Below are positions 1 through 49,529 of a stretch of 64,000 bases of DNA, one piece after another. The notes under the pieces were generated by a model. It was not told the DNA's origin. It did no database searches and saw only the letters and a list, made by a program, of their open reading frames with translations. A program made the translations under genes and the position numbers. The DNA is from a virus. Numbering within the stretch: the stretch's first letter is position 1; each line of letters begins with the position of its first letter. The stretch is taken from the IMG/VR virus record IMGVR_UViG_3300045988_126112, positions 64,001 to 128,000 of that record; one strand, 5' to 3'.

Positions 1-397
1 AAGGAATAGTTCCTTCAAGAATTAAATTATTAAATAATTCTCCTTGTTTATTTGGAGTACCATGAGTATGTGCTTTTATAGTATCTCCTTCTAGCCATAA
101 TTTTGTCATACAATGTGCTATATTATTTAAATCTATACTTTGTTGTCTTACCAATTCTGTAGTCATTGGATGTCCTGCTTCACCAAAGAAGTTTTTTGAA
201 TTGATTAATTCCATAGTACGTTCGCAAGATAATTGACCTTGGAAATCTTCTGTTCCATACCAACGTCCATTTCTATTTTTTATATTTAAATCTTGCATTA
301 CTGTTTCTATAGATAATCTATTGTTTTTATCTGATACTATTCGCATTTCTTTTGGTGTTGTAGTTGCTTCATTAATCATATATCCTAATGCTTGCAT
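1..397 (-). CDS. Prohead core protease, T4 gp21-like (N-terminal 132 aa in window; rest runs off the left edge)
   Basis: My own reverse-strand translation from the ATG at 395-397, with GGAGG upstream: MQALGYMINEATTTPKEMRIV...NSKNFFGEAGHPMTT...LWLEGDTIKAHTHGTPNKQGELFNNLILEGTIP. The GE-x-GHP box (about 167-184) and the downstream W..G...G....G..L...I..G spacing resemble T4 gp21 (GELNHP). It is absent from the ORF track because it is open at the window edge. Confidence 0.65.
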   Translation of the reverse strand, partial: MQALGYMINEATTTPKEMRIVSDKNNRLSIETVMQDLNIKNRNGRWYGTEDFQGQLSCERTMELINSKNFFGEAGHPMTTELVRQQSIDLNNIAHCMTKLWLEGDTIKAHTHGTPNKQGELFNNLILEGTIP

Positions 398-30636: not shown

Positions 30637-33252
30637 ATGAACTTTGAAGGATTAGGAACAATTTATGAATCATTAGGACAATATGATCAAATACCAATGA
30701 CTGAAGAGAATATTAAGAAATACAAATCTAAAGCTAAAGGATTATCTCATATAAGAACTGGCAAAGATTATACAGGTACTATAATTTTAGATAATAAAGA
30801 CGTAGTAGGCTTTTATAATCTTAGAAAATCTGATAGATATATCCAAGCTTTAGAGGTTAGTGAGAATTATCAATCTAAAGGTATTGGAAGTCAATTACTT
30901 CAAGAATGTATTAATAAAGGAGCAACTAAATTATCTGTAAACAAGAAAAATGAAAAAGCTATTAATCTTTATAAGAAAAGAAACTTTAAAGTTGTTAAAG
31001 AAGATAATACCATGTATTATATGGAATTAAATAAAAAGGTACATGGGCTAAAAGAAAGTTATAGTAATATACCAGAACTTAATGAAGATTATAAGAAATA
31101 TATTACTCAAAATTTTGAAGATACTTTAAAAGCTGAAGAAGAAAGTATTGAAAAATTTGGTCTTTCTATTAGAGAAAGATATGAAAATATATTCGATGAT
31201 ATTTGCTCAAGACAATATCTAAATGAAAATGTAAATGAATCTACAGCTTTACAAAATGAAGATTTTGTAAGATCCGTTGGATATCAAATTCCTACAGACA
31301 ATATAACTTGCTTACCTTATTTTACACCACAAGAACTTGAAGATATTGTATTTAAAGAAGGAGTTGAACAACCTGAATGGTTTAAAGAATATAAACTTCT
31401 TCAAAATGGTATAGTTAGTGAAAGATTTATAGAATTGAATAAGCAAAGACTTAATGATTTATATGAAAATATAAATGAAGATTCTAATACTATATTAAAA
31501 CTTGGGTGGACTCCTGATATTCCATTAACTAGTGATAATTTAGAAAAGGTATCTGCAACTACAGCGTTTAGAATTAGATGCAATCTATGTACTAATGAAT
31601 TTTATGATGCTACTTCTATACACGATGATGAGTATATTAAAGAATCTATAGAAACAGGTAAATATATTTATGTAGATATCGACAAATTTATTACAGGAAA
31701 AAATAATGTTTGTTTAATTACTGGATTATCTGGAAGTGGTAAAACTACTCTAGCTAAAGAAATGGCATCTAAATATAATGCTACTATTGTTTCTTTAGAT
31801 AGTTTTACTGGAAAATATGGAGAAATTAATCATGATCCTGTATTAGATTCTTATATGAAAAAGAATAAAAAACTTGCTAAAGATTTAGAAGAAGGAAATT
31901 TAGATAATAATGCTATAGCTTATGAAATGGATAAATATCTACAATATGCTATTTCATATTGTAATAAAGATACTAATAATAAATATATTATAGAAGGAGT
32001 TCAAATATATTGGTTAATGAATGGTAAAGACCTTAAAGGTTGCTCATTAGTTTGCGTAGACGCTTCTGCTGTAAAAAGTGCATTACAAAGAGTTAAAAGA
32101 TCTAATAAATTAAATAAAGAAGCTAATACAAATTTAATAGGTAAATTATCAGATGCTTTACAATCTGCAAAAATTAATAAAGATGATGTTAGAGGTTATA
32201 AAGACTTCAAAAAGGAAGTAAGAGAAGGATTAACTGAAGCTACTAAAGATAATAAAAATCCTGTATATATAATACTTGTATATACAGCATCACCATTTGG
32301 AAAAATGATTAAAGAATATACACATGGAATATATACACATGCAGCTATGTCTTTAGATAATACTTTAAATAAACTTTATAGTTTTAATCTAAATAATCAA
32401 TTTAATAAACTTGGTGGATTTAGTATTGAATCTATAGAGGGTTATAAAAAAGATAATAAAGATGCTATAATGTGTGTATATACTACATTCATAGATGATG
32501 ATAAGAAAAGAAAACTAGACAAACAAATAAATTACTTTATAGGTAATATAGATAAAACTAAATATAGTATTATAAATGTGCTTGGCTTAATTGCAAATAA
32601 GCCTATAGAATTAGCTAATGATATGATATGTAGTCAATTTGTTGATAGAATGCTTAAGTCTGTAGATATAGACGTTACTGGTATGGCTAGTTCTTTAGTA
32701 ACTCCAAATGATATTTATAAATCAACTTCTAATAAAATATATAAAGTTTATGAAGGAAGAGTTGATGAATATAATCATAAGAAAATTCAAGCTAAAGTTA
32801 ATAAACTTAGACGTTCTAGTATAACTGAAGCTAAATCTGCTCCAGTACAATTTGATAAAGATGGTAATCTTCTTATTATAAAAAATATAAAAGATGTACA
32901 AGAAGAATATAATAAATGCCATAAGTTACTTCTATCTTATGATTCTTCAGGAAATATAGAAGGGATGAAGCATGAGTTATATAAATTATGGTATCTTAAT
33001 CTTATACTTGAAAGAAAGATATATAAGAATAAGAAACCTGAAAAAGAATATCATGATATGAGAGCAAGAATACTTAATGATTTTAATAAGTATCTTAAAA
33101 TAGTAAATAAAGCTGAACCAGACTTTGATTTCACATCTGGTTATGAAGAATCGCCATATAGTGATGCAGCTATTAAAATCCATTCTCATACTTTGAAATA
33201 TGGAGTTAAGTATTCTAAATCATTATTTAAGCTATTTGAAACTGTTTTATAA
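30637..33252 (+). CDS. Multidomain early protein (871 aa): N-terminal GNAT acetyltransferase, central P-loop NTPase/kinase-like module, C-terminal permuted papain-like (YiiX/C92-like) module
   Basis: GNAT motif A: IQALEVSENYQSKGIGSQLLQ...AINLYKKRNFKVV. Walker A: ITGLSGSGKTTLAKEM. C-terminal His-before-Cys pattern: YTHGIYTHAAMSL ... NDMICSQFVDRML. Class I box at 30600-30610. The GNAT and P-loop calls are solid; the peptidase call is tentative. Confidence 0.6.
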   Translation: MNFEGLGTIYESLGQYDQIPMTEENIKKYKSKAKGLSHIRTGKDYTGTIILDNKDVVGFYNLRKSDRYIQALEVSENYQSKGIGSQLLQECINKGATKLSVNKKNEKAINLYKKRNFKVVKEDNTMYYMELNKKVHGLKESYSNIPELNEDYKKYITQNFEDTLKAEEESIEKFGLSIRERYENIFDDICSRQYLNENVNESTALQNEDFVRSVGYQIPTDNITCLPYFTPQELEDIVFKEGVEQPEWFKEYKLLQNGIVSERFIELNKQRLNDLYENINEDSNTILKLGWTPDIPLTSDNLEKVSATTAFRIRCNLCTNEFYDATSIHDDEYIKESIETGKYIYVDIDKFITGKNNVCLITGLSGSGKTTLAKEMASKYNATIVSLDSFTGKYGEINHDPVLDSYMKKNKKLAKDLEEGNLDNNAIAYEMDKYLQYAISYCNKDTNNKYIIEGVQIYWLMNGKDLKGCSLVCVDASAVKSALQRVKRSNKLNKEANTNLIGKLSDALQSAKINKDDVRGYKDFKKEVREGLTEATKDNKNPVYIILVYTASPFGKMIKEYTHGIYTHAAMSLDNTLNKLYSFNLNNQFNKLGGFSIESIEGYKKDNKDAIMCVYTTFIDDDKKRKLDKQINYFIGNIDKTKYSIINVLGLIANKPIELANDMICSQFVDRMLKSVDIDVTGMASSLVTPNDIYKSTSNKIYKVYEGRVDEYNHKKIQAKVNKLRRSSITEAKSAPVQFDKDGNLLIIKNIKDVQEEYNKCHKLLLSYDSSGNIEGMKHELYKLWYLNLILERKIYKNKKPEKEYHDMRARILNDFNKYLKIVNKAEPDFDFTSGYEESPYSDAAIKIHSHTLKYGVKYSKSLFKLFETVL

Positions 33253-38157: not shown

Positions 38158-39342
38158 ATGAAAGGTAATAGTTATAAATATAATATACAGCTTACTTATA
38201 TGAAAGATGATATTGAAATCAATCTAGATTATAAGAATATACTTACAATGGCTATTGATTATAATTATGAAAAAAAGAATATGCCTACATTGTTGATAAG
38301 GGTTGGTATAGATAAAAGTATTATAGACCATATGATTAGCAATAAAAATAATACAATAATATTATCTATAACTAAGTTTAAAGAAAGTAATGGTATACAT
38401 ATACGTAAGCCAGTTATAAAAAGTGAATTCTTTTATTTTTTAGATAATAATATGTCGTTTACAGACGATATAGATTATGGAAATAAGGAAAACAAAGAAA
38501 ATAAAGATATATATAAAATAATTTCTTTAGGATTGATACAAAAGGATATAGTATTAAATAATAAAACTTTGATAAATACAGTATATAAAGATACTCATTT
38601 ACTAGATATAATATGTGATGTGTTTAAAGAAAAGAATCTTGTAATTGAACCTTTTGTAAATAATGATGATGTTAAATGTCTTATAGTTCCTCCTATGGAA
38701 ACTGTAAGTAAGTTTTTAACATATTTAGACGATAGATATACATTTTATAATACACCATATAGATTCTTCTATGATTTTAATAAGACTTATTTACTTAGTT
38801 CTTCTGGAAGAGGTGTACCAGTTAAAAATGAAAAATATAATGCAATATTTATATATGTAGATAATACTATAACTGACAAATCTAAATTTGATGGAATGAA
38901 AGAAGATAGTGAATTAAAAGCATATATGATAAATGTCGATGCAGCAGCAATAAATATATCTGTAGATAAAGCAACTACTATAAGTTATAATCAAATCATT
39001 GGGGTAAATAGTGAAGGTGAATATCAATCTGTAAATATAAATAGTAATTTAGACGGAGATAGATATAAAGTTACTAGACTTAATAATGAAAGATTTGATG
39101 TATTAGATAACCTTAAAAATGAACTTGAATCAAATAATATTGTAATTAATATAATAAAAGGAGAATTAGACTCTACTGTATTTACATTGAACAAAGAATA
39201 CTATATTAAAAATTATAATAAACTAGCTGATAAGAATGGTAAGTTCTTATTATCTGCTAAAAAAGAAATATATATAAAAGAAAGTGAATACTTTAATATG
39301 ACTACTATACTTACATTGAAAAAATGCCCTAGTACTAATTAA
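38158..39342 (+). CDS. Hypothetical protein (394 aa)
   Basis: ORF track; AAAGGAG upstream. Ends in the bidirectional terminator at 39320-39365. Confidence 0.7.
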   Translation: MKGNSYKYNIQLTYMKDDIEINLDYKNILTMAIDYNYEKKNMPTLLIRVGIDKSIIDHMISNKNNTIILSITKFKESNGIHIRKPVIKSEFFYFLDNNMSFTDDIDYGNKENKENKDIYKIISLGLIQKDIVLNNKTLINTVYKDTHLLDIICDVFKEKNLVIEPFVNNDDVKCLIVPPMETVSKFLTYLDDRYTFYNTPYRFFYDFNKTYLLSSSGRGVPVKNEKYNAIFIYVDNTITDKSKFDGMKEDSELKAYMINVDAAAINISVDKATTISYNQIIGVNSEGEYQSVNINSNLDGDRYKVTRLNNERFDVLDNLKNELESNNIVINIIKGELDSTVFTLNKEYYIKNYNKLADKNGKFLLSAKKEIYIKESEYFNMTTILTLKKCPSTN

Positions 39343-39365
39343 AGTACTAGGGTTTATTTTATTTT
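39320..39365. terminator. Bidirectional terminator at a convergent gene junction
   Basis: ccctagtact/agtactaggg 10-bp stem flanked by an A-run on the left and a T-run on the right. Confidence 0.75.
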
Positions 39366-40897
39366 TTCTTTTCAGCTGGTTTATTTCCTTCCTCAAATCC
39401 ATCTCCGTTGTCTTCAGGTTTGCTAAGTTTTATATACATACGTTTATAAACATCTTTATTTCCATCTTTAGTTTTAAAGTGTCTACTAATTTTCCATAGT
39501 TTTGATTTACCTTCTTGAGATACAGTTATTCCACCTGGAACGAAATCTAATCCTTCTTTTTCATTTTTAGTTTCATTTGTTTGATAAGCTGAACTAACAT
39601 CTTGGAACATTACTTTATTGTCACCTTGATCATCAACATAATTAATTCTTATTATATAATTATTAGAATTGTTACATTGATCATTACCAGATTTATAACA
39701 TATATCAATACTTTGTATACCTTTTTGGTCTTTTTGTGCTTCTTTAGCAGCAGGAGTTAAATCATTATTATAATCTGTTCCTGTTTTAACTGGAGCATCT
39801 CCTTCTTTATCATCAGAAGCTTGACCACCATAACTAGCAACATGTTTCTTGATTATTTTCCAATAGAATTCGTATATTTCTTTAGCAATAGCTAATTTAG
39901 CTGTAGTTAAATACATTGCAGTATCTGTGTATTCACTACATTTTTTACTTACATCACTATGTTGAGATGTAGTTTTTATACCTTCTTTTTCTGCATCAGT
40001 AGGTCCTTTTACATCCCCTTTTTTCATAGCATTATTTTTAACTTGTGTACCAACTTTATTTACAGATTGTTTGTTAGTCATATCACCAGTAACTTGTTTA
40101 GCTCCAGCACCATCTACCATTTCTTCATCTTCAGCTTCAGTAAAATATTTTTCAAAGAATTCTGAATAAGCTGTTGTTGGAGTAAATAATACACTTTCAT
40201 TATTTGAAGCAGGAGTATCATCTTTTAAATCTTTTATAGATAACTGTTTAGCTATTTTTGCTGCTGCATCTCCTATAACTTTTTCATCATTTTCTAAAGG
40301 CTTTAATATTTTTTCTTTATAATCTACACAATAATTATAAATATTTGTCATATTAACTTGTTCAGCTGTATATGTCTTTTCATCTCCACCTCTAAAATAA
40401 TCTTTAGCAGCATCTATAAGTTCATCTTTATCACAGTTTAATTGATTCATTTTAAAATAGTCATGTAATATTTCATTAGTATAATTATCTATATTCCATT
40501 TACTTACTCTAGAATAATCAAATGGTGGTATAGGTGAATTTGCTATTCTTTTAATACCTTCATCATATGGATACATTTCTATTTCTTCTGTATATTTAAT
40601 CTTCTTACCTACAATAAGGTCTTTATTTTTTTGAAGATAATTTTCTTTAGTAGAGAAAAAGTTTTTAAATCCATTGATAGCTTTTCTAACCATTTCTTTT
40701 ATCTTTTCCCAAGCTTTTTGTAATTTTTCTTTGGCACTATCAATAACACCTTCATTTATTTTATCTAATTTTTCTATACTCATTTCTCCTGAAGTCCATA
40801 ATATAGCTTCTTGGATAAAATTATACATACGTTCTTGTTCATAAGCTTGTTCTAATAAGAAGTTTCTATACACAATATCTTGAGTTTGATAATCCAT
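39359..40897 (-). CDS. Paralogue family member P1 (512 aa), longest and most divergent
   Basis: Shares the family core helix (KEKLQKAWEKIKEMVRKAINGFKNFF) with P2-P5. TAATG overlap with P2. Confidence 0.75.
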   Translation of the reverse strand: MDYQTQDIVYRNFLLEQAYEQERMYNFIQEAILWTSGEMSIEKLDKINEGVIDSAKEKLQKAWEKIKEMVRKAINGFKNFFSTKENYLQKNKDLIVGKKIKYTEEIEMYPYDEGIKRIANSPIPPFDYSRVSKWNIDNYTNEILHDYFKMNQLNCDKDELIDAAKDYFRGGDEKTYTAEQVNMTNIYNYCVDYKEKILKPLENDEKVIGDAAAKIAKQLSIKDLKDDTPASNNESVLFTPTTAYSEFFEKYFTEAEDEEMVDGAGAKQVTGDMTNKQSVNKVGTQVKNNAMKKGDVKGPTDAEKEGIKTTSQHSDVSKKCSEYTDTAMYLTTAKLAIAKEIYEFYWKIIKKHVASYGGQASDDKEGDAPVKTGTDYNNDLTPAAKEAQKDQKGIQSIDICYKSGNDQCNNSNNYIIRINYVDDQGDNKVMFQDVSSAYQTNETKNEKEGLDFVPGGITVSQEGKSKLWKISRHFKTKDGNKDVYKRMYIKLSKPEDNGDGFEEGNKPAEKKK

Positions 40898-41970
40898 TAT
40901 AGTTCACCTCCTATAAATTTTTTATCTTTTTCTATCTTAGATAATGCTATATATAATATACGTTTATCTTGTACGTATTTATCTTTTAAAGCATCAAGTT
41001 TTTGACTGAAAGCTATACTATGTATAGTACTCATTTCAGTTATTTGATTTGTAAGAGCTTTTACATAAAGATTTAATTGATTCATTGAATCATTATCTAA
41101 TGTTGCCTCAGTTCCACCAACAGCACCATCATTAGATTTAACTTTAAATCCACCTGCTGTTCTTTCACTACTAACCATTCTGTCTATTTGTTTTTCTATT
41201 TGTTTATATTGGTTTTCTAATTCTTTTTTAGTCTTTTTAACATTCTTTTCTGTTTCTTTATAGTCTTTCATATCTCTAAAGCATTCCATAACTTTAGCAT
41301 TATCTACAGTAAATATTGAAGTTGAATCCATATTATTTCTAAATAATTCAAATAATTCACTAGAGAAATCTGATTGATATATAGCTCTATCTGGTTGACC
41401 TATAACTTTTCCTCTAAGTTTATCATATTTTTCTCCATCTATTTCATCTTTTACATTTTTATATAATTCTTTTAATTTATCTTTATTTTTTCTATTATCT
41501 GCTCCTAATTGAGATAGATCTAATTTTACAAATTCTGAATTGAATTCAACCAAAGCATCACACACAGGTATATTAGGTTCTATAGTAAATTCATAACCAT
41601 CATAATCAAATTCATGATCTGAATTGAATTTCTTTAAAACGTCTTCTTTCTTTATAAGATATTTTTCAGAGTTTACTATTCTATGAAGTGTAGTTATAAA
41701 ACGTTCAAATAAACTCTTTATATATTTTATAAAACTTTTTATAATATCTTTAATCTTTTGGAAGAAATCAGAAAAGGCTTCATTTACTGCAACAAAATTA
41801 TCAGCTTCATAAATAGCTCTATACATTTCTTTATTGGCTTCTCTATAGGTAGTATTCATCTCTCTAAGATAACCTATAGTATATATAGTTAAAGATCTAT
41901 CTTCTATAGTTTGATTCATTATAGACGATATATCGTTTTCGATAATTAAAGAATTTAATCCTATTCCCAT
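40897..41970 (-). CDS. Paralogue family member P2 (357 aa)
   Basis: N-terminus MGIGLNS. Core: FSDFFQKIKDIIKSFIKYIKSLFERF. GAGGAGGTG upstream. Confidence 0.75.
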   Translation of the reverse strand: MGIGLNSLIIENDISSIMNQTIEDRSLTIYTIGYLREMNTTYREANKEMYRAIYEADNFVAVNEAFSDFFQKIKDIIKSFIKYIKSLFERFITTLHRIVNSEKYLIKKEDVLKKFNSDHEFDYDGYEFTIEPNIPVCDALVEFNSEFVKLDLSQLGADNRKNKDKLKELYKNVKDEIDGEKYDKLRGKVIGQPDRAIYQSDFSSELFELFRNNMDSTSIFTVDNAKVMECFRDMKDYKETEKNVKKTKKELENQYKQIEKQIDRMVSSERTAGGFKVKSNDGAVGGTEATLDNDSMNQLNLYVKALTNQITEMSTIHSIAFSQKLDALKDKYVQDKRILYIALSKIEKDKKFIGGEL

Positions 41971-41989
41971 TATCTTTGCACCTCCTCAA

Positions 41990-42031
41990 AAAGTAAATAA
42001 AATAGAGATTACCCAAAAGGCAATCTCTATT
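41990..42031 (-). terminator. Terminator/attenuator hairpin inside the paralogue operon (minus strand)
   Basis: aatagagatt/aatctctatt stem. The minus strand continues ttatttacttttt. Confidence 0.6.
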
Positions 42032-42053
42032 TGGGATTTATTTATAAACTAAA

Positions 42054-43172
42054 TTATATTAATCTAAGGTTATCTAATGATGGTATACCATCTTCATTAT
42101 ATGAACTATAATCATCATCATATTCATAAGATTCATTTTTAGCTTTTCTACCTATAAGTTTAACACAAGTAGCTTTATATTGTTTACGTTGATCATTGAA
42201 TGCTGTCATTTTAGCAGCTTCAACTTGTTCTAATATAGTTAAACAGTTAGTAACAACTGTATTACATTTAGATATAACTTGAAGTCTCTTAGAATTAGTA
42301 TTAACTTCATCTTTATCTGTAGGTTTAGGTATTTTAGATAACTCTTTAGAGCATCTTTCTAATTCTTTAATTTGATTTTCACAAGTTTTCTTAGTTGTCT
42401 TAAAGTCATCTTTTATTGTTTTTGAACCTGTTGAAGCATTCATTAAGAATTGAACTATTTCTCCTTTATTTATGTCACTATCATCTAAAGTTATAGCTGA
42501 ATCTTCATCATTTCTTAATTTAGCTCTTAATTCTTTAGCAAATTCGCCAGCATCTAAACCACCAGAAGAACCTATAGCAGCTGCTCTTAATTCTTCTATT
42601 ATATCAGTATCTTCAGATTTTACATCTTTATCTTCTATAGTACTTAATCTATCAGATCTGTAATTAAATGCAATAGCTACAGTTGTTCCACTTAATCCTT
42701 CCATTTTAATAGATACTTTTTTCATAGCATCCAATATAGATTGTGCTCCAGCTACTTTTTCTGGTGTAAATTTATAACCTTTTATTTCAAGGTCTTTTGT
42801 ACTACCAGCCATTATTTGTTTTCTGTATTTATTTACAAAAGCTTTATCATCTTTACCAAAAGATTGCATTTTAGCAAAGAATTTAGTAAATAGAGATTTT
42901 ATTTTTTCCCATATTTTTTTTATTGCAGCTTTTAATTTTTCTATTATACCGCCTGCTCTACCAGCTTCATAAACTATTTCTTGACCAGTAGATTCTAATA
43001 CTGCTAATTCTGAAACACCTATAGTTTTCATTATAGCATTTAAATTTGAGTCTATTTCATAAGTATGTCTAAGAGCTGCTTCGTCAAAGCTATCTTCAAA
43101 TATATCTTCAACTTCTACATCTTCTAAATAAGCAGTTCCTTCATAAGCTTCTTTAACTGAGTATATTCCCAT
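42054..43172 (-). CDS. Paralogue family member P3 (372 aa)
   Basis: N-terminus MGIYSVKE. Core: GGIIEKLKAAIKKIWEKIKSLFTKFF. AAAGGAGG upstream. Confidence 0.75.
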   Translation of the reverse strand: MGIYSVKEAYEGTAYLEDVEVEDIFEDSFDEAALRHTYEIDSNLNAIMKTIGVSELAVLESTGQEIVYEAGRAGGIIEKLKAAIKKIWEKIKSLFTKFFAKMQSFGKDDKAFVNKYRKQIMAGSTKDLEIKGYKFTPEKVAGAQSILDAMKKVSIKMEGLSGTTVAIAFNYRSDRLSTIEDKDVKSEDTDIIEELRAAAIGSSGGLDAGEFAKELRAKLRNDEDSAITLDDSDINKGEIVQFLMNASTGSKTIKDDFKTTKKTCENQIKELERCSKELSKIPKPTDKDEVNTNSKRLQVISKCNTVVTNCLTILEQVEAAKMTAFNDQRKQYKATCVKLIGRKAKNESYEYDDDYSSYNEDGIPSLDNLRLI

Positions 43173-43198
43173 TATAATTTCCTCCTTTTTTATATAAA

Positions 43199-44344
43199 TT
43201 AAAATTCATAGTTTTCAAACATTTCATTTATTTCATATTCAGCTGCTTCTTCTACAGCATCTAAATATGTAGCTTCATTTTTAGCTTTATCATTATATGA
43301 TACAGCTTTAGCAAATACTCTTCTTGATTGAGATATTTTGAATTTATGTTCATTTAAGAAACAAGCAACTACTCTATTATGAACATTTTCAAGTGTACTT
43401 ATACAAGTTTGTACTACTCCACTAACATTTAATGAATCAGTTACTTGTTGAGCATCAACAATTTTCTTTTTACTACCTCCACCATCAGTATCTGTTGGTA
43501 TAGTTACCATATCACCTTTTTTAGCTTTACCTAATTCTTTAGAGTATGATTCTACTCTTTTTAATACAGCACTAAAATGTTTATCAGTTTTCTTTTGTGC
43601 ATCTGTTATTTCTTTCTTTATTTTATCACCTTGTAAATCTAATATAATAGAAGTTAATCTAGATGAATCTAATCCTTCTTCTGATTCTTCTGAATCAAAA
43701 CACAATTCATGTATTTCTTTAGCAAGATCTTTCATTTCAACATTTTTTAATTTACTACTTATGCATCCTTCTATAAAATAAGATTCCAAATCTCCATCAT
43801 CTATATGTTTCTTCCATGAATCAGCAGTAGATTCGTTATCTAACATACCTAATATAGTAAGTGCTTCTGTTTGTAAAGCAGTACCAGGATCTAAAGCATC
43901 TTTTAATTCTTTAAATCCAGCTAATTCTTGGCTATATTTGTATTTTAATTTACTAAGATTTTTAGTTCTTACTTGACGTTGATATTTTTCAACAAATTTT
44001 TTATTATCTCTTATGATAACTGTATCTAACTTCTTTAAAAAAGTTGAGAAAACACCTTTAATTTTTTCCCATATTTTCTTTATCATTGATTTAAATGCTT
44101 CAAAGAATCCACCTAATGAAGCTTCTGTAAATGCTAATAATTCTTCTTCTGATGCTCCTTCATTAACCATTACAGCTTGATTAAAATCTCTAGCTATACC
44201 AGCTTCAAATATAGCATGATTATTTCTTTCCATGTCTATAAGAGCATTATAACAACCTAATGTACCAACATAAGATTCATCTGCTACTATTTCTTCTCCT
44301 GAATAATAATTTAATCCAGTTCTATTTGATGAGTATATTCCCAT
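43199..44344 (-). CDS. Paralogue family member P4 (381 aa)
   Basis: N-terminus MGIYSSNR. Core: GGFFEAFKSMIKKIWEKIKGVFSTFLKK. Contains a 233-nt tract identical to P5. Confidence 0.8.
   Translation of the reverse strand: MGIYSSNRTGLNYYSGEEIVADESYVGTLGCYNALIDMERNNHAIFEAGIARDFNQAVMVNEGASEEELLAFTEASLGGFFEAFKSMIKKIWEKIKGVFSTFLKKLDTVIIRDNKKFVEKYQRQVRTKNLSKLKYKYSQELAGFKELKDALDPGTALQTEALTILGMLDNESTADSWKKHIDDGDLESYFIEGCISSKLKNVEMKDLAKEIHELCFDSEESEEGLDSSRLTSIILDLQGDKIKKEITDAQKKTDKHFSAVLKRVESYSKELGKAKKGDMVTIPTDTDGGGSKKKIVDAQQVTDSLNVSGVVQTCISTLENVHNRVVACFLNEHKFKISQSRRVFAKAVSYNDKAKNEATYLDAVEEAAEYEINEMFENYEF
43934..44166 (-). repeat. 233-nt tract identical to 45131..45363 (inside paralogue P4)
   Basis: Base-by-base comparison by eye shows no mismatch. 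The flanks diverge immediately (t/a on one side, cc/tc on the other). Confidence 0.85.
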
Positions 44345-44386
44345 TATAGTTTCCTCCTTTATTAAGCATAATATTTTATTTTATAG

Positions 44387-45526
44387 TTATAAACAATATT
44401 GTTCAAACATTTCATTTATTTCATATTCAGCTGCTTCTTCTACAGCATCTAAATATACTGATTCATTTTTAGCTTTATCATTATAAGATACAGCTTTAGC
44501 AAATACTTTTCTAGCTTGAGAAATTCTAAATTTATTTTCATTTAAGAAACAAGCAACGGCTCTATTATGAACATTTTCAAGATTATTTATTACAGTTTGA
44601 ATTACTCCAGCATTTTGTAAATAATTAGTAATAGTTTTATTACTAGTTATAGGAATTTTTTTAGATGCATCATCTGGTCTATCTATTTCTATTTTTTTAT
44701 TATTATCATCTATTTTACTTTTAGATAGGTCTTTACTATATCTATCTAAATCTTTTAATATACTTCTAAAGTGTTTATCTACAGATTTTTGTGCTGTTTC
44801 AATATCTTTTTTAGTTTTATCACCTTGAAGTATTATTATTATTTCTGTAAGTCTTGATGAATCTAATCCTTCTTCTGATTCTTCTGAATCGAAACAAATA
44901 TCATGGACTTCTTTTGATAAATCTTTCATTTCAACATTTTTAAGTTTACCACTTATACATTTTTCTATGAAGTATTCATTTAATTCATCTTTTTCAAGCA
45001 TATCTTTATAAAAAGTTAATGAACCAAACCAGTTAGCAAAGCCTTTCATAACATTATCTGCTTCATCTTTAAATTTATCTTTTGTTGTTAAAGAATCTTT
45101 TATATCGTTAAATCCTTCTAATTGCTTACAATATTTGTATTTTAATTTACTAAGATTTTTAGTTCTTACTTGACGTTGATATTTTTCAACAAATTTTTTA
45201 TTATCTCTTATGATAACTGTATCTAACTTCTTTAAAAAAGTTGAGAAAACACCTTTAATTTTTTCCCATATTTTCTTTATCATTGATTTAAATGCTTCAA
45301 AGAATCCACCTAATGAAGCTTCTGTAAATGCTAATAATTCTTCTTCTGATGCTCCTTCATTAATCATTGTAGCTTCTTGAAAATCTCTAGCTATATTATA
45401 CTCAAATATAGCACGATTATTTCTTTCCATATCTATAAGAGCATTATAACAACCTAATGTACCAACATAAGATTCATTAGCTTGCACATCATATTCTGAT
45501 TCCATATGTCTTGAATATATTCCCAA
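44387..45526 (-). CDS. Paralogue family member P5 (379 aa), TTG start
   Basis: The track ORF starts at the GTG at 45535, which abuts AGGAGG. The TTG at 45524-45526 is 8-9 nt from the SD and gives the N-terminus MGIYSRH, matching the paralogues. Confidence 0.75.
   Translation of the reverse strand: MGIYSRHMESEYDVQANESYVGTLGCYNALIDMERNNRAIFEYNIARDFQEATMINEGASEEELLAFTEASLGGFFEAFKSMIKKIWEKIKGVFSTFLKKLDTVIIRDNKKFVEKYQRQVRTKNLSKLKYKYCKQLEGFNDIKDSLTTKDKFKDEADNVMKGFANWFGSLTFYKDMLEKDELNEYFIEKCISGKLKNVEMKDLSKEVHDICFDSEESEEGLDSSRLTEIIIILQGDKTKKDIETAQKSVDKHFRSILKDLDRYSKDLSKSKIDDNNKKIEIDRPDDASKKIPITSNKTITNYLQNAGVIQTVINNLENVHNRAVACFLNENKFRISQARKVFAKAVSYNDKAKNESVYLDAVEEAAEYEINEMFEQYCL
45131..45363 (-). repeat. 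233-nt tract identical to 43934..44166 (inside paralogue P5)
   Basis: See the partner feature. Encodes ...EGASEEELLAFTEASLGGFFEAFKSMIKKIWEKIKGVFSTFLKKLDTVIIRDNKKFVEKYQRQVRTKNLSKLKYKY. Confidence 0.85.
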
Positions 45527-45538
45527 TTTTAGCACCTC

Positions 45539-46564
45539 CTAAAAAATTGATGAAGCAACTGAATCTGGCATTGAATCTACCAAATCATCTGCTTTATATT
45601 TCTTTGTGTTATCACTTTTAACTTCTCTTGAAGCTTTTACTTCACTTTGTTTATTATCTATTGCTATTTTATTAGCAACTTTATCAAAGAAATTAGCAAT
45701 TGCATATTGCTTTTTAGATATTTCTTTTCTTTCTTTAGCTTTCATTCCAGGATTTGTTTCTACAGCTTGAGCATTTATTTTTAATAATTCAGATTGTATA
45801 TAGAAATAATCTGAAACTTGAGTTCTAGTATGGAAGAAGAAGTATACTAATTCTCTCATTATCGGAAGTATATTTGTAGCTAATAAAGTTAAAGCTACTA
45901 CAGCAGCAACACCTGCAACTGAAGTTGAAACACCTAAAAGATTTTTACTAGCTTGAGATATTACATATTCCATTGATTTATCAAAATCACCTTTCTTACA
46001 GCATTGATTGAATTTAGCTAAGTTATTTAAAACTAAATTATCTTTAGTTTTATTAACAGCTATTTTATCAACTACAGCTTCATATGAATCTCCATTAGGA
46101 ATTTTAATAAATTCAACACAAGTAGATATTAAATATGAATTAGCTTGTATAACAGCTAAAGTCATTGTAGAATACATTACCATCGGTAATTCGATACTTA
46201 ATTTAAAAGCTTTTTCAAACAATTCTCTTCTTGAACGTATATTATCTAAAGCTTCCAATACTGTATCTACTGGATTAGCTTTTTGACCATATTGTGATAA
46301 TAAAGATTTCATTACATCTAAACTATCAACCAATTGTTCATAATTACTAAGCTTAGTAATATCACCTTTAGTTTCTGGTATATCACCAAAATCTATATCA
46401 TCAATCTTATTGATGATATGGTCATAAAGTCTACTAGTTAATGATGCTAATATTTGAGATTGGTCTTCTTCATTTACATTAAGCATTATAGTTCTAGTAT
46501 CTTTATCATCTAAATCAAAATGCTCTTTTAATATTTGATCATATTCCTTAGTCATATAAGCCAT
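45539..46564 (-). CDS. Hypothetical late protein (341 aa) with one hydrophobic segment
   Basis: ORF track; GGAGGTGAT upstream; class II box at 46580-46593. Hydrophobic segment: VAGVAAVVALTLLATNILPI. Confidence 0.7.
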   Translation of the reverse strand: MAYMTKEYDQILKEHFDLDDKDTRTIMLNVNEEDQSQILASLTSRLYDHIINKIDDIDFGDIPETKGDITKLSNYEQLVDSLDVMKSLLSQYGQKANPVDTVLEALDNIRSRRELFEKAFKLSIELPMVMYSTMTLAVIQANSYLISTCVEFIKIPNGDSYEAVVDKIAVNKTKDNLVLNNLAKFNQCCKKGDFDKSMEYVISQASKNLLGVSTSVAGVAAVVALTLLATNILPIMRELVYFFFHTRTQVSDYFYIQSELLKINAQAVETNPGMKAKERKEISKKQYAIANFFDKVANKIAIDNKQSEVKASREVKSDNTKKYKADDLVDSMPDSVASSIF

Positions 46565-46579
46565 TTTATCACCTCCACC

Positions 46580-46593
46580 TTAATATTCTGTTA
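46580..46593 (-). promoter_or_regulatory. Class II box
   Basis: Minus strand reads aaaTAACAgaatatTAAggtggagg. 18 nt from the ATG at 46564. Confidence 0.5.
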
Positions 46594-46641
46594 TTATTTA
46601 TATTCCATTTCTATTTAATCAAAAAATAAACTTTCTATATA

Positions 46642-47943
46642 TTATCGCATTTTAGTCATAAGAGTTATCATTTTTCTGAAATCATTATCACTAGATTCTC
46701 TTTCTAGTGATCTAAATGAAAGTCTCTCATAAACATCATTACCAGTATCATAAATGAAGTCACATACTTCATTTAATTCATCTACTATAACAACAGACAT
46801 TAAATTGTAAGATTCCATTATAGGTCTTATTACTCTAGGATTATCTATATGAACATTGTAATTCTTTTTAAGATATTGTACTTCTTCTTGAGAAACTACT
46901 AATGTAGTTATAGCACTAGCATCATTTGGTTGACCTAAAGTTCTTCTTATTTTAGATTTCAAAGAACGTCTTTCTAATACTTTCCATAATTTAGAACTTG
47001 AACCTCTACGTGATTGAGATAAAGCATCTATTTTTGCTTTATCAATAGCAAATAAGAAATCTTTAACAAAAGATATTTCTCTTGTAGTAGCTCTTATGAA
47101 TTTTAAAAATCCATTATTATCTACATTTTTAGAGTATAATCTTTCTACTACATCCATAGAATCTATAGGATATAGTTTTGCTTTTACACCTATAACTAAT
47201 CTATTTTGTATAGGCATTCCATCAGTATTAGTAACAAAGTTTACTATCATTACAGTTGGTACTAATTCATTAGCTTTTTTAACATCTGAATCCATTAATT
47301 GATTTCTAAGAATATCAACATGATTTTTTGAACCTTTAAAATCCATATCTAAATAACGTTCTTCATCATAGTCTATAGGAGGAGCTTCATATAATATAGC
47401 ACTTTGACTACCATCATATTTTGAAGCTACTATCTTATAATTTTCTAATGAAATATTATTTACTGATTCTGGAAGTACATAACTTATATTATGTTTAAAA
47501 TCTTCTTTAAGCAAATCAAGTTTTTCTCTATATTCAATTGGATTGATATTAGCATTTTCATCTGCAGCTGACATTATTAAGTCATCCATTAAATTCATAA
47601 AACTATCAACAGACATTTTATCGTCTATTTTTAGATTAGTATGGAATTTCTTAATATAATCTAATCCATTATTAGTATTATTTACTGATATAGCAGAAAA
47701 AAGCATCTGTAACATAGATACAGCTTTACGTTCAACAGCTTTAGCTACCATTGTTGCATTTTCTACACTTATGTTTCTAACTGTCGCTACTGGAAAGACT
47801 AATGTTAATGCATCTGAAGCATGCGAAATAGATTTGAAACTGTCATTAGCAGTCATACCCTTAATGTAATCTGATTTTCTAACATCATTTATAACGTCTA
47901 TAATATCTCTTATAACTGTTTCATGTATTATATCATTTGACAT
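46642..47943 (-). CDS. Hypothetical late protein (433 aa)
   Basis: ORF track; AAAGGAGG upstream; class II box at 47969-47982. Confidence 0.7.
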   Translation of the reverse strand: MSNDIIHETVIRDIIDVINDVRKSDYIKGMTANDSFKSISHASDALTLVFPVATVRNISVENATMVAKAVERKAVSMLQMLFSAISVNNTNNGLDYIKKFHTNLKIDDKMSVDSFMNLMDDLIMSAADENANINPIEYREKLDLLKEDFKHNISYVLPESVNNISLENYKIVASKYDGSQSAILYEAPPIDYDEERYLDMDFKGSKNHVDILRNQLMDSDVKKANELVPTVMIVNFVTNTDGMPIQNRLVIGVKAKLYPIDSMDVVERLYSKNVDNNGFLKFIRATTREISFVKDFLFAIDKAKIDALSQSRRGSSSKLWKVLERRSLKSKIRRTLGQPNDASAITTLVVSQEEVQYLKKNYNVHIDNPRVIRPIMESYNLMSVVIVDELNEVCDFIYDTGNDVYERLSFRSLERESSDNDFRKMITLMTKMR

Positions 47944-47968: not shown

Positions 47969-47982
47969 TTAATATAATGTTA
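47969..47982 (-). promoter_or_regulatory. Class II box
   Basis: Minus strand reads tttTAACAttatatTAAaat. The 15-mer TTAACATTATATTAA is identical to the copy at 52175-52189. Confidence 0.55.
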
Positions 47983-48031: not shown

Positions 48032-48268
48032 CTAAAAGTATGTTATTACATATCTCATAGGTTTAATATCATCTTCTTCTCTTTTTGGTTCCTCAATTTT
48101 GTTACATTTATATTCTTCATGTTGTTTTACAGGTTCAACATAATTAGATGTAGTATCATAAGAATAATTACTTTCGTAACTTCTTTGTTTTCTACGTCTA
48201 TTACTTGAAACTGCACTCCTTCTTATATAAGTGTAACTACTTTCTGCACATAAGCCTCTATTATACAT
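48032..48268 (-). CDS. Hypothetical protein (78 aa)
   Basis: ORF track; GGGAGG upstream; class I box (minus strand) at 48368-48378. Confidence 0.6.
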   Translation of the reverse strand: MYNRGLCAESSYTYIRRSAVSSNRRRKQRSYESNYSYDTTSNYVEPVKQHEEYKCNKIEEPKREEDDIKPMRYVITYF

Positions 48269-48414: not shown

Positions 48415-48431
48415 TTTGAAAGGATGTGATT

Positions 48432-49529
48432 ATGATGGCTAAAACCAAGAAGAATAAAAAAGATGACGAATTAATTAAATTATCTAGAGAGTCTAAAATA
48501 CAATCCAGTATAGATAAAAATGGTAACGTCTTACATTTAGGGAAAAGTGGCTATCTTAAAGAGACTGGAGCTTTAGATAATAAGACATTAACAGAGATAC
48601 AGCAAGCTGATTTTATACAAAATTCTTCAGATATGAATTGGCTTACTAGATTTAATAGGTTAAGTTATTTGGACCCATATAATACTTTAACTCATAATAA
48701 AGAATATATATTTATAACTAAACCAGACTTACATTTATTTGAAGGTAAAAGTAGTAGTGCTTTAAATAGTGAAATAAAAGATAATACTTATTTTTTAGAC
48801 ATGTTTGAAAGATATAGACATGTAATGAAACAACTACAATATTCTGTAAATACTTCTAATCCTTATTTATGTATACTTTCTAATTCAGTAGCATCATCTA
48901 TTGAATTACCTTCTATAAATAGTTTGGAATCAGAATCTCCAGAGAATTTATATGGAGATAAAATATCATATAGACATGGCTCTGCAGCTGGAGATGTTGG
49001 ATTTGAATTCTCTTTAGAATTTTATGAAACTAAAAATTTGGAAATATATAATCTATTTAAAATGTGGGATAAATACTATGAATTAAAATCAAATGGAAGA
49101 ATCACTCCTCCAGATGATTCATATATTTTAAATATGGAATTACATGATCAAGTATCTATATATAAGATAATAGTAGGTGAAGATTATGAAACTATATTAT
49201 TCTATGCTAAATATTATGGTGTATATCCAAAAAGTTTACCTAGAGATAGCTTTGGTTCATTAGATGATGGGAATTTAAAACTAAGTGTAGATTTTAAATC
49301 TTCATTTGTTATAGATAATGACCCACTAATATTAGCTGATTTAAATAAGATATCTTATGGAGATAAAACTGGTAGTGTTGAATTAGAAAGTTTATGGGAT
49401 CATGAAAATGATAGAGTAAATTATAAATGGGTTGGAAAACCATATGTAATCAAATGTAAAGATATAGATAATGGTGAAAACTCAGAAGGAAGTATGGGAA
49501 AATATAAATTGAAATGGGGGAAAAAGTAG
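48432..49529 (+). CDS. Hypothetical late (probably virion) protein (about 365 aa)
   Basis: The track ORF starts at the GTG at 48426. The ATG at 48432 is better spaced from AAAGGA. Class II box at 48401-48414. Confidence 0.7.
   Translation: MMAKTKKNKKDDELIKLSRESKIQSSIDKNGNVLHLGKSGYLKETGALDNKTLTEIQQADFIQNSSDMNWLTRFNRLSYLDPYNTLTHNKEYIFITKPDLHLFEGKSSSALNSEIKDNTYFLDMFERYRHVMKQLQYSVNTSNPYLCILSNSVASSIELPSINSLESESPENLYGDKISYRHGSAAGDVGFEFSLEFYETKNLEIYNLFKMWDKYYELKSNGRITPPDDSYILNMELHDQVSIYKIIVGEDYETILFYAKYYGVYPKSLPRDSFGSLDDGNLKLSVDFKSSFVIDNDPLILADLNKISYGDKTGSVELESLWDHENDRVNYKWVGKPYVIKCKDIDNGENSEGSMGKYKLKWGKK

What the first reader, a model, noticed from the sequence alone, without database searches (positions are those of the whole stretch)
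39359..45535. Five tandem paralogues (about 6.2 kb) with conserved termini and variable centres: candidate internal-head or ejected protein family
Seen in sequence:
- Five consecutive minus-strand genes of 357-512 aa share an amphipathic core (xxIKKIWEKIKxxFxxF) and related C-terminal helices, while their central thirds differ.
- P3, P4 and P5 begin MGIYS, the last only if its TTG start is used. P2 begins MGIGL.
- All are downstream of class II (late) boxes, next to other virion-like genes. A T4 gp21-like prohead protease is encoded in the window.

Established knowledge: phiKZ-type and T4-type phages package families of paralogous internal proteins that carry short N-terminal targeting or propeptide sequences removed by the prohead protease.

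Inference: this family may play that role, with the variable centres as diversified effectors.
Basis: partly seen in the sequence, partly recalled or inferred. Interest (0 to 1): 0.65.

Follow-up and report, generated by a model that had tools for sequence, protein, structure and literature searches.

The report
Jumbo-phage internal head protein paralogues
Five neighbouring genes of a giant AR9/PBS1-like phage encode very distant relatives of the phiKZ "internal head" proteins, which are packed inside the capsid and injected with the DNA.

Summary
Five consecutive minus-strand genes, P5 to P1 (45526 to 39359), form one family. It has a conserved N-terminal third, a lysine-rich amphipathic helix (IKKIWEKIK), conserved C-terminal helices and a variable centre.

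P4 and P5 are a recent duplicate (67% identity). P3, P2 and P1 represent three older subfamilies kept in the same order in distant relatives, which carry four genes. AR9 carries two.

The window is syntenic with Bacillus phage AR9 gp210-gp219 and with the phiKZ gp88-gp97 inner-body operon. The evidence that the family is a remote branch of the phiKZ internal head proteins (Pfam PF12699) is:
- 39 of 124 members give sub-threshold PF12699 hits; the next most frequent Pfam family is hit by 6.
- A profile-profile comparison gives 94% probability (E 1.5e-7), against a reversed-profile control of 53%.
- The AR9 homologue gp215 is a mass-spectrometry-identified virion protein.
- A phiKZ gp175-type (S80) prohead protease gene lies at the window edge.

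A conserved [LIV]-x-E|[A/G] motif just before the amphipathic helix is a candidate cleavage site.

Two further points emerged. The P4 and P5 cores are homogenised by gene conversion. The phage's GroEL-like chaperonin also begins MGIYS.

Packaging, cleavage and ejection are inferred, not shown. No effector domain was found.

The parts
44387..45526 (-). P5: A-type paralogue, 379 aa from the TTG start (the ORF is open up to the GTG at 45535).
   Evidence: The ribosome-binding site spacing and the 379-aa MGIYS orthologues support the TTG start. P5 is 67% identical to P4.
43199..44344 (-). P4: A-type paralogue, 381 aa, taken as the archetype of the family.
   Evidence: The AlphaFold2 model has pLDDT 79.5 and pTM 0.77 and is an elongated all-helical bundle. 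The family comprises 2,194 cluster representatives at E<=0.001.
42054..43172 (-). P3: B-type paralogue, 372 aa, starts MGIYS.
   Evidence: P3-P4 are 29.5% identical over 322 aa, E 2e-19. B-type orthologues lie at the same position in L006, L007 and L008.
40897..41970 (-). P2: C-type paralogue, 357 aa, starts MGIGLNSLIIEN. Its stop codon overlaps the P1 start by 1 nt.
   Evidence: P2-P3 E 6e-8. The P2 N-terminus matches AR9 gp215 at 27% over 103 aa, E 2e-5. C-type orthologues are present in L006-L008.
39359..40897 (-). P1: D-type paralogue, 512 aa, with an extra C-terminal beta domain of about 100 aa.
   Evidence: The N-terminal ~130 aa are related to the family directly and transitively. The AlphaFold2 model has pLDDT 64; the beta domain at residues 390-490 gives only weak cyanovirin-N-like (CVNH) fold hits, E 0.13.
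43934..44166 (-). Gene-conversion tract in P4. It is 233 nt, 100% identical to 45131-45363 in P5, and covers the candidate cleavage site and the amphipathic helix.
   Evidence: The same pattern occurs in L014 (243 nt) and L015 (381 nt).
45131..45363 (-). Gene-conversion tract in P5, the partner of 43934-44166.
42000..42032 (-). Terminator-like hairpin (15 bp stem followed by a T run) between P3 and P2.
39326..39353 (.). Bidirectional terminator-like hairpin between P1 and the convergent gene at 38158-39342.
45539..46564 (-). U1: 341 aa, homologue of the AR9 gp214 virion structural protein. It occupies the position of phiKZ gp90 and lies in the same transcription unit as the five genes.
   Evidence: BLASTP to AR9 gp214, E 5e-23. 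phrog_23545 'virion structural protein', E 7e-29.
46642..47943 (-). U2: 433 aa, homologue of AR9 gp213 and of phiKZ gp89 (an inner-body protein). First gene of the unit.
   Evidence: BLASTP to AR9 gp213, E 2e-27. AR9 gp213 matches phiKZ gp89 at E 1.5e-5, and U2 matches gp89 at E 0.024. phrog_23804, E 1.5e-30.
47970..47981 (-). AR9-type late-promoter-like box AACATTATATTA, 38 nt upstream of U2.
   Evidence: The motif is taken from PMC5312081.
46581..46592 (-). AR9-type late-promoter-like box AACAGAATATTA, 28 nt upstream of U1.
48426..49529 (+). Divergent neighbour gene, 367 aa, homologue of phiKZ gp88 and AR9 gp212. It anchors the synteny with the phiKZ inner-body operon.
   Evidence: BLASTP to phiKZ gp88, E 1e-7, and to AR9 gp212, E 1e-17.
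1..397 (-). N-terminal 132 codons of a prohead protease gene (phiKZ gp175 / T4 gp21 type), cut off by the window edge. It is the presumed processing enzyme.
   Evidence: Pfam Peptidase_S80 at 25.2 bits (cut-off 23.4) and Peptidase_S77 at 22.6 bits.

Best explanation
The five genes are the AR9/PBS1-lineage counterparts of the phiKZ-type internal head proteins (inner-body or ejection proteins, Pfam PF12699).

Proposed mechanism:
1. They are transcribed late, together with the gp89-like and gp90-position head genes U2 and U1.
2. The acidic N-terminal region of about 75 residues, which begins M-G-[IV]-[YF]-S and is predicted to be partly disordered, brings each protein into the prohead. This is probably by binding the inner face of the capsid lattice, as the phiKZ gp93 N-terminal arm does.
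3. The S80 prohead protease, encoded at the window edge, then cuts after conserved glutamates. The best candidate is [LIV]-x-E74|[A/G], directly before the lysine-rich amphipathic helix. A second candidate is A-[DN]-E23 in the A-type proteins.
4. Cutting frees the helix-rich body (residues ~75 to the end). This body stays with the packaged DNA and is probably ejected into the cell with it.

What is shown: the family itself, the synteny, the remote homology, the fold class, the protease gene and the conservation of the motifs.

What is inferred: packaging, the cleavage positions and ejection.
For: Synteny:
- The window matches AR9 gp210-gp219 gene for gene, with the five genes in the place of gp215 and gp216.
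- It also matches the phiKZ inner-body operon. V367 matches gp88 at E 1e-7 and AR9 gp213 matches gp89 at E 1.5e-5. In phiKZ, the internal head proteins gp92-97 follow directly.

Remote homology to PF12699:
- The first array gene of relative L008 hits phiKZ_IP at E 5.9e-5, 22.9 bits.
- 39 of 124 family members hit PF12699 at E<=0.1 (best 2.1e-6). The next most frequent Pfam family is hit by 6 members.
- hhalign of the family profile against a 12-sequence phiKZ_IP profile gives Prob 94%, E 1.5e-7, score 63.8. The relaxed alignment is colinear over about 320 columns. The reversed control scores 42 and column-shuffled controls score about 10.

Fold. P4 is modelled as an elongated helical bundle. 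Foldseek against BFVD (predicted viral structures) finds several paralogues per uncultured myovirus and a 296-aa AR9 protein, the length of gp216, at prob 1.0 and target TM 0.58. phiKZ gp92-97 are likewise described as alpha-helix-rich (PMC11297242).

Virion presence. AR9 g215 is one of 43 virion proteins identified by mass spectrometry (PMC5312081).

Protease. A Peptidase_S80 gene fragment lies at 1-397.

Candidate sites, counted over 146 representatives:
- E74 is present in 131.
- A, G or S follows in 129.
- The residue at -2 is L, I, V, M, F or Y in all 146.
- In hhalign this Glu falls within one residue of phiKZ gp93 SLE-156.

Charge pattern. The N-terminus is acidic (net -10 to -13) and the following helix is basic (+6 to +9), as in phiKZ gp93.

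Precedents in the literature:
- SPN3US gp53 and gp54 have identical N-terminal 15 residues despite 34% overall identity, and they carry long propeptides (PMC5694885).
- The phiKZ gp93 N-terminal arm binds the capsid, and cleavage releases the helix-rich domain (PMC11297242).
- phiKZ gp90, gp92, gp93, gp95 and gp97 are injected (bioRxiv 10.1101/2024.03.24.586471).
Against: - None of the five window proteins hits PF12699 at E<=0.1, and no family member was shown to pass the gathering score.
- Part of the profile-profile signal comes from amphipathic-helix periodicity: the reversed control still gives Prob 53%, E 1.4e-4.
- phmmer with the phiKZ internal head proteins finds nothing in the family.
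- E23 is absent from about a third of members. E74 lies inside a long predicted helix rather than in an exposed loop.
- There are no proteomic data for this phage. Whether AR9-like phages have an inner body at all is unknown to me.
- AR9 g215 is expressed continuously rather than strictly late (PMC5312081).
Confidence: 0.62

Rival explanations
1. The proteins are internal capsid cement or scaffold-like core proteins only. They help build and stabilise the large prohead. They are then either degraded and expelled or stay bound to the shell, and they are not delivered into the host.
For: [quoted passage not shown]
- The proteins here are acidic and helical, like scaffold proteins.
- The four-subfamily set is kept in a fixed order, which would fit a structural assembly of fixed composition.
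Against: - The closest characterised relatives (phiKZ gp92, gp93, gp95, gp97; SPN3US gp53 and gp54) are ejected (bioRxiv 10.1101/2024.03.24.586471; PMC5694885).
- AR9 gp215 is present in mature virions (PMC5312081), so it is not a scaffold that is fully removed.
Confidence: 0.2
2. The proteins are tail- or baseplate-associated helical proteins, for example assembly chaperones or tape-measure-like components, rather than head proteins.
For: - The region is flanked by tail-type genes. Homologues of the divergent neighbour V367 hit Pfam Phage_TTP_15.
- A 2,434-aa protein at 56545-63849 lies where AR9 annotates its tail tape measure protein (gp203); this correspondence rests on position and was not tested by alignment.
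- There are weak PHROG hits to tape-measure families, E 0.006-0.007.
Against: - The PHROG hits are coiled-coil noise at E>0.005.
- The PF12699 signal and the gp89/gp90-type neighbours point to the head.
- In phiKZ the equivalent operon encodes head proteins, as found in tailless particles (bioRxiv 10.1101/2024.03.24.586471, citing Thomas et al. 2012).
Confidence: 0.07
3. The proteins are non-virion late proteins, such as intracellular structural or host-takeover factors. They resemble the phiKZ internal head proteins only through a shared lysine-rich amphipathic helix.
For: - The window copies lack any direct PF12699 hit.
- The reversed-profile control shows that helix periodicity contributes to the score.
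Against: - Synteny is conserved across AR9, phiKZ and four metagenomic lineages.
- AR9 gp215 is in the virion (PMC5312081).
- The relaxed profile alignment is colinear over the whole protein, not only over the helix.
Confidence: 0.05

Closest known systems
phiKZ internal head / inner-body proteins gp92-gp97, gp162, gp163 (Pfam PF12699 phiKZ_IP)
   Same: - Tandem paralogues located directly downstream of gp89/gp90-type head genes and divergent from a gp88-type gene.
- An alpha-helix-rich body.
- An acidic N-terminal region followed by a lysine-rich amphipathic helix, with a conserved x-x-E just before that helix.
- A gp175-type (S80) protease encoded in the genome.
- Remote sequence similarity.
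   Different: - The window proteins do not reach the PF12699 threshold.
- The N-terminal motif is MG[IV][YF]S, not the phiKZ ...L-x-S-L-E.
- The presumed propeptide is shorter: about 75 residues, against about 130-260.
- There is no long poly-acidic member like gp97.
- Four subfamilies are kept in a fixed order.
- The host lineage is a low-GC, AR9/PBS1-like phage (AR9 has uracil-containing DNA).
SPN3US gp53/gp54, high-copy ejection proteins homologous to phiKZ gp93
   Same: They are diverged paralogues (34% identity) that keep an identical N-terminal peptide. That peptide was interpreted as analogous to a T4 capsid-targeting sequence. They are processed by the prohead protease (PMC5694885). 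Here P3, P4 and P5 share MGIYS at 24-67% overall identity.
   Different: - The N-terminal sequence differs (MANFVKSKLARESVE).
- The SPN3US propeptides are 124-125 residues long.
- Processing and ejection are shown experimentally for SPN3US and are not shown here.
AR9 gp215 and gp216 (PBS1 orthologues)
   Same: - They occupy the same genomic slot.
- gp215 matches the P2 N-terminus at E 2e-5.
- gp215 and gp216 are paralogues of each other, E 5e-8.
- A 296-aa AR9 protein, the length of gp216, is a structural match to the P4 model.
- gp215 is a virion protein (PMC5312081).
   Different: - AR9 has two genes, not four or five.
- There is no MGIYS N-terminus.
- AR9 annotation gives no link to the phiKZ internal head proteins.
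T4 internal proteins IPI, IPII, IPIII with a capsid-targeting sequence
   Same: The logic is shared: a conserved short N-terminal peptide, cleavage after Glu by a related prohead protease (S77 and S80), and ejection with the DNA.
   Different: - There is no sequence or fold relationship.
- The T4 internal proteins are small and basic, with 10-20-residue propeptides.
- The proteins here are 357-512 aa, acidic and helical.

Membership tests
Pfam PF12699 phiKZ_IP (phiKZ-like internal head proteins) | The protein matches the Pfam model at or above its gathering score (27 bits). | tested here: not met
   P1-P5 give no PF12699 hit at E<=0.1. The best named relative, L008 8756-9982, scores 22.9 bits, E 5.9e-5. 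39 of 124 members hit at E<=0.1, best 2.1e-6; the bit score of that best hit was not reported.
Pfam PF12699 phiKZ_IP (phiKZ-like internal head proteins) | Profile-profile similarity to bona fide members across the helix-rich domain. | tested here: met
   hhalign of A5 against 12 internal head proteins from phiKZ, SL2, Phabio and Psa21 gives Prob 94%, E 1.5e-7. The relaxed alignment covers query 10-360 and template 89-471. The reversed control gives Prob 53% and shuffled controls give E about 0.9, so the signal is real but moderate.
Pfam PF12699 phiKZ_IP (phiKZ-like internal head proteins) | Tandem paralogues within the inner-body operon, next to gp88/gp89/gp90-type genes. | tested here: met
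   V367 matches gp88 at E 1e-7. AR9 gp213 (the U2 homologue) matches gp89 at E 1.5e-5. The arrangement is the same in AR9, L006-L008, L014 and L015.
Pfam PF12699 phiKZ_IP (phiKZ-like internal head proteins) | Alpha-helix-rich fold. | tested here: met
   The AlphaFold2 model of P4 (pTM 0.77) is an elongated helical bundle. P1 residues 1-355 are similar. A direct superposition on phiKZ models was not possible with the tools available.
Pfam PF12699 phiKZ_IP (phiKZ-like internal head proteins) | Present inside the virion head. | not testable with these tools
   The only evidence is indirect: AR9 g215 is a virion protein identified by mass spectrometry (PMC5312081).
Pfam PF12699 phiKZ_IP (phiKZ-like internal head proteins) | Processed by the gp175-type prohead protease after Glu (S/A/G-x-E in phiKZ, A-x-E in SPN3US). 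| not testable with these tools
   An S80 protease gene is present. The conserved candidate sites are [LIV]-x-E74|[AG] (E in 131 of 146) and A-[DN]-E23 (E in 94 of 146). No proteomic data exist for this phage.
Pfam PF12699 phiKZ_IP (phiKZ-like internal head proteins) | Ejected into the host with the DNA. | not testable with these tools
   Known for phiKZ gp90, gp92, gp93, gp95 and gp97 (bioRxiv 10.1101/2024.03.24.586471). Nothing is known here.
T4-type internal proteins with a capsid-targeting sequence | A short (10-20 aa) conserved N-terminal peptide ending in L/I-x-E, removed by gp21. | tested here: inconclusive
   A conserved N-terminal peptide exists: M-G-[IVLMF]-[YF]-[ST], with G in 110 of 146. 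The first conserved Glu motif is at residue 23, present in only about 64% of members. The best motif is at residue 74.
T4-type internal proteins with a capsid-targeting sequence | Small basic proteins related in sequence to IPI-III. | tested here: not met
   The proteins are 357-512 aa with pI 5.2-5.6. There are no PHROG or Pfam hits to T4 internal proteins.

The most novel reading that the evidence does not exclude
The N-terminal peptide M-G-[IV]-Y-S-(N) is a portable capsid-targeting or processing signal in this phage lineage. It is carried not only by the internal head paralogues but also by the phage's GroEL-like chaperonin (window 10917-12629, MGIYSNIVKK; a 59%-identical homologue starts (M)SLYSNIVEK). 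It is also carried by a U1-type head protein in relative L008 (MAIYSNEE). On this reading the chaperonin would be packaged and delivered with the DNA, to refold ejected proteins that had to unfold to pass through the tail. The gene-conversion-homogenised core of P4 and P5 would reflect allele-matched co-assembly of the internal proteins.
Probability: 0.06. Interest if true: 0.8.

Novelty: new member of a known kind. Interest (0 to 1): 0.42.

Why it matters
Scope of the family. It links a large, entirely unannotated protein family to the experimentally studied phiKZ and SPN3US inner-body and ejection proteins. The family has about 2,200 clusters at 50% identity and is spread through low-GC AR9/PBS1-like jumbo phages in metagenomes. 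This extends the inner-body operon beyond the Gram-negative phiKZ group into the AR9/PBS1 lineage, where such homologues were reported as not easily detectable.

What it makes testable. The work gives concrete predictions: an N-terminal MG[IV]YS targeting peptide, and cleavage after E74 and possibly after E23. These can be checked by semi-tryptic proteomics on AR9 or PBS1.

An unexpected signal. The P4 and P5 core segment is identical within each genome but diverges between genomes. This marks the amphipathic helix and the cleavage region as an interaction surface under unusual evolutionary pressure.

Tried and rejected
- Phage database searches. Megablast of the 6.2-kb region and tblastn of P4 against 50,697 phage records found nothing.
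- Family libraries. Pfam and PHROGs on P1-P5 gave only coiled-coil noise; the tape-measure and phrog_17020 hits had E>=4e-4.
- Solved structures. A profile search of PDB sequences gave nothing below E 0.03. Foldseek of the P4 model against the PDB gave a best E of 0.2, with generic long helical bundles including ClyA-family toxins at TM<=0.2, so I rejected that lead.
- Direct comparison with phiKZ. BLASTP and phmmer of phiKZ gp92-97 against the family found nothing significant. hhalign against a 4-sequence phiKZ profile was too weak, E 0.027 to 0.005. A signal appeared only with a 12-sequence profile.
- Large-database search with phiKZ gp92-95. It returned only 5 close Pseudomonas-phage proteins and did not help to build a profile.
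- The protease gene. Looking among complete ORFs with Pfam, PHROGs, BLAST with phiKZ gp175, and the neighbourhoods of the capsid gene in relatives failed. The gene is the truncated ORF at the window edge.
- Effector idea. No enzymatic domain was found in any variable centre. The P1 C-terminal beta domain gives only weak cyanovirin-N-like matches, E 0.13.
- N-myristoylation-type reading of MGxxS. I considered and dropped it. The Ser is one position out of register with the eukaryotic motif, and no such enzyme is known in bacteria (from my own knowledge).
- Literature. The AR9 genome paper and the phiKZ proteolysis paper were not held in the library.

Full report
**What is there.** The window has about 26% G+C. 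The region 39359-47943 carries seven co-oriented minus-strand genes. In order of transcription they are:
- U2 (46642-47943)
- U1 (45539-46564)
- P5 (44387-45526)
- P4 (43199-44344)
- P3 (42054-43172)
- P2 (40897-41970)
- P1 (39359-40897)

P5 starts at the TTG at 45526. AGGAGG lies 8 nt upstream of it, the alternative GTG overlaps that ribosome-binding site, and all orthologues are 379 aa and begin MGIYS. A 15-bp terminator-like hairpin at 42000-42032 separates P3 from P2. A bidirectional hairpin at 39326-39353 closes the unit.

**Is it a family?** Yes.
- P4 and P5 are 67% identical.
- P3-P4: 29.5% over 322 aa, E 2e-19.
- P2-P3: 25% over 200 aa, E 6e-8.
- P1-P3: 24% over 104 aa, E 7e-4.
- P1's membership is confirmed transitively through orthologues in related contigs.

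Over 146 representatives at or below 50% identity, conservation is high at residues 1-140 and 320-380 and lowest at 141-200 and 281-300. The description "conserved termini, variable centre" is therefore correct.

The family is large. A profile search of 1.84 billion cluster representatives found 2,194 proteins at E<=0.001 and 587 at E<=1e-30. All 107 hits of the first search were uncharacterised: two carried only a "hypothetical protein" label, the rest no name, and none had a precomputed Pfam domain.

**Anatomy of the array in relatives.**
- Distant relatives L006, L007 and L008 each carry four genes in the same slot and the same order. They are orthologous to P4/P5 (type A), P3 (B), P2 (C) and P1 (D).
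- Close relatives L014 and L015 carry five genes, like the window.
- AR9 carries two, gp215 and gp216, which are paralogues of each other.
- The ancestral state is therefore four ancient subfamilies. The fifth gene comes from a lineage-specific duplication of type A.

**Context.** The window matches Bacillus phage AR9 gp210-gp219 gene for gene:
- U2 = gp213, E 2e-27
- U1 = gp214, E 5e-23
- the 882-aa gene = gp211, E 6e-53
- V367 = gp212
- the two downstream convergent genes = gp217 and gp219

The window also matches the phiKZ inner-body operon. V367 matches phiKZ gp88 at E 1e-7, AR9 gp213 matches gp89 at E 1.5e-5, and U2 matches gp89 at E 0.024. In phiKZ, gp89 to gp91 are followed directly by the tandem internal head proteins gp92-97, all of which carry Pfam PF12699 (bioRxiv 10.1101/2024.03.24.586471). 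The five genes are thus the positional equivalents of the phiKZ internal head proteins.

**Homology to the phiKZ internal head proteins.** Direct searches fail. Three more sensitive tests agree.
1. In L008 the first array gene hits PF12699 at E 5.9e-5 (22.9 bits, below the cut-off of 27). The third hits at E 0.07. Both hits lie on the amphipathic-helix region.
2. When 124 family members were scanned one by one against Pfam, 39 hit PF12699 at E<=0.1 (best 2.1e-6). The next most frequent family was hit by only 6.
3. I built a 12-sequence profile from phiKZ, SL2, Phabio and Psa21 internal head proteins. hhalign of the family profile against it gives Prob 94%, E 1.5e-7, score 63.8. With a relaxed threshold the alignment is colinear over about 320 columns. 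A reversed template still scores 42 (Prob 53%), so part of the signal is helix periodicity. Column-shuffled templates score about 10.

I take this as moderate to good evidence for remote homology. The synteny strengthens it.

**Structure.** AlphaFold2 models P4 as an elongated helical bundle (pLDDT 79.5, pTM 0.77). Residues 1-26 are disordered and the central region is a small helix and beta-hairpin elaboration.
- The PDB holds no similar fold; the best E is 0.2.
- The viral model library returns several uncharacterised paralogues per uncultured myovirus.
- It also returns a 296-aa AR9 protein, the length of gp216, at prob 1.0 and TM 0.58, and weak matches to ~430-aa proteins of phiKZ-like phages.
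- phiKZ gp92-97, gp162 and gp163 are described as sharing alpha-helix-rich folds (PMC11297242).
- P1 adds a disordered linker and a C-terminal beta domain of about 100 residues, which gives only weak cyanovirin-N-like matches, E 0.13.
- No effector or enzyme domain was found anywhere.

**Protease and candidate processing sites.** An ORF starting at 397 on the minus strand runs off the window edge. It matches Peptidase_S80, the phiKZ gp175 family, at 25.2 bits (above the cut-off of 23.4). It also matches Peptidase_S77, the T4 gp21 family, at 22.6 bits. These proteases cut after Glu: S/A/G-x-E in phiKZ and A-x-E in SPN3US (PMC5694885), and L/I-x-E in T4 (from my own knowledge).

Across 146 representatives the family conserves two such motifs.
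- [LIVMFY]-x-E74-[AGS]. E is present in 131 of 146, and A, G or S follows in 129 of 146. The motif sits immediately before the amphipathic helix, at the switch from an acidic N-terminal segment (net -10 to -13) to a basic one (+6 to +9). In the profile alignment it falls within one residue of phiKZ gp93 SLE-156.
- A-[DN]-E23-[SN]-Y. E is present in 94 of 146.
- All five window proteins carry an [LIVF]-x-E-[AG] within about 16 residues upstream of the helix.

**The N-terminus.** M-G-[IVLMF]-[YF]-[ST] is kept across the family down to about 20-30% identity. Gly is found at position 2 in 110 of 146 representatives. The precedent is SPN3US gp53 and gp54, homologues of phiKZ gp93. Their first 15 residues are identical although the proteins are only 34% identical overall. 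The authors compared this with T4 capsid-targeting sequences (PMC5694885). In phiKZ, gp93 residues 14-84 bind the inner capsid surface, and gp175 cleavage separates them from the helix-rich domain (PMC11297242).

**Expression.** The AR9 late-promoter motif AACA-N6-T[AG] (PMC5312081) occurs 38 nt upstream of U2 and 28 nt upstream of U1. It also occurs in front of the capsid gene and other virion genes. It does not occur directly in front of any of the five genes. They are therefore "downstream of late boxes" only as members of the operon. P2 and P1 lie beyond a terminator-like hairpin. AR9 g215 is one of only two virion genes that are expressed continuously rather than strictly late (PMC5312081).

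**Concerted evolution (new observation).**
- P4 and P5 share 233 nt of 100% identity (43934-44166 = 45131-45363). This stretch covers residues ~57-137, which include the candidate cleavage site and the helix. Elsewhere, even identical residues often use different codons.
- The same holds in L014 (243 nt) and L015 (381 nt).
- Between genomes the same block is only 82-87% identical at the DNA level. That is lower than the 93-94% identity of the whole genes between the window and L014.
- The core is therefore repeatedly homogenised within each genome while it diverges between genomes.

**Verdict.** The "diversified effector" part is not supported. Packaging, cleavage and ejection remain untested.

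Noticed in passing
window 10917-12629 (+); L016, L017, L018: The GroEL-like chaperonin (phrog_5725, E 2e-51) begins MGIYSNIVKK, the same N-terminal pentapeptide as P3, P4 and P5. A 99%-identical homologue keeps it. A 59%-identical one starts (GTG)SLYSNIVEK, and a 44%-identical one starts MVITNVVKK. Codon usage differs from that of P3-P5, so this is not a recent DNA transfer. Its meaning is unknown.
   Followed up: partly
window 43934-44166 and 45131-45363; L014 8001-10328; L015 8001-10346: A gene-conversion tract links the two A-type paralogues. They share 233-381 nt of 100% identity within each of three genomes, while the same block is only 82-87% identical between genomes.
   Followed up: yes
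L008 6608-8647: In this distant relative the U1/AR9 gp214-type head protein carries a ~345-aa N-terminal extension that begins MAIYSNEE, which resembles the family's N-terminal motif.
   Followed up: no
L006 7496-8908: Three small genes are inserted between the U2 and U1 homologues of this relative. Their precomputed Pfam hits are Rv2179c-like, Acb2_Tad1_hairpin (an anti-CBASS/Thoeris sponge fold) and nucleoside 2-deoxyribosyltransferase-like. This may be an anti-defence islet inside the head operon.
   Followed up: no
window 39359-39700 (P1 residues ~390-490): The C-terminal beta domain of P1 gives a run of weak Foldseek hits to cyanovirin-N homology lectins (best E 0.13, prob 0.96, target TM 0.46). 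This is not significant.
   Followed up: partly
window 30637-33252 (+): An 871-aa protein combines an N-terminal GNAT acetyltransferase region, an ATPase-like stretch and an enoyl-CoA hydratase/crotonase-like region (PHROG hits at E 1e-11 to 1e-6). This is an unusual fusion.
   Followed up: no
window 48426-49529 (+); L006 4425-5534; L007 6069-7022; L008 3467-4699: Homologues of the phiKZ gp88 / AR9 gp212-type neighbour carry precomputed hits to Pfam PF23971 Phage_TTP_15, a tail-tube-protein family. A tail-type gene therefore sits back to back with the head operon.
   Followed up: no
window ~48032-48268 (-): A small ORF of about 78 aa, rich in Ser, Tyr and Arg, lies upstream of U2. It is conserved as a 77-aa gene in L005, L014 and L015 and has no annotation.
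   Followed up: no
window 3963-5063 (+): The 366-aa protein encoded directly upstream of the major capsid gene has an extremely acidic, low-complexity N-terminus (DEDEEKKKNKNQPDDDNEEEEDDEPP...). It has no database match. It may be a scaffold-like protein.
   Followed up: partly
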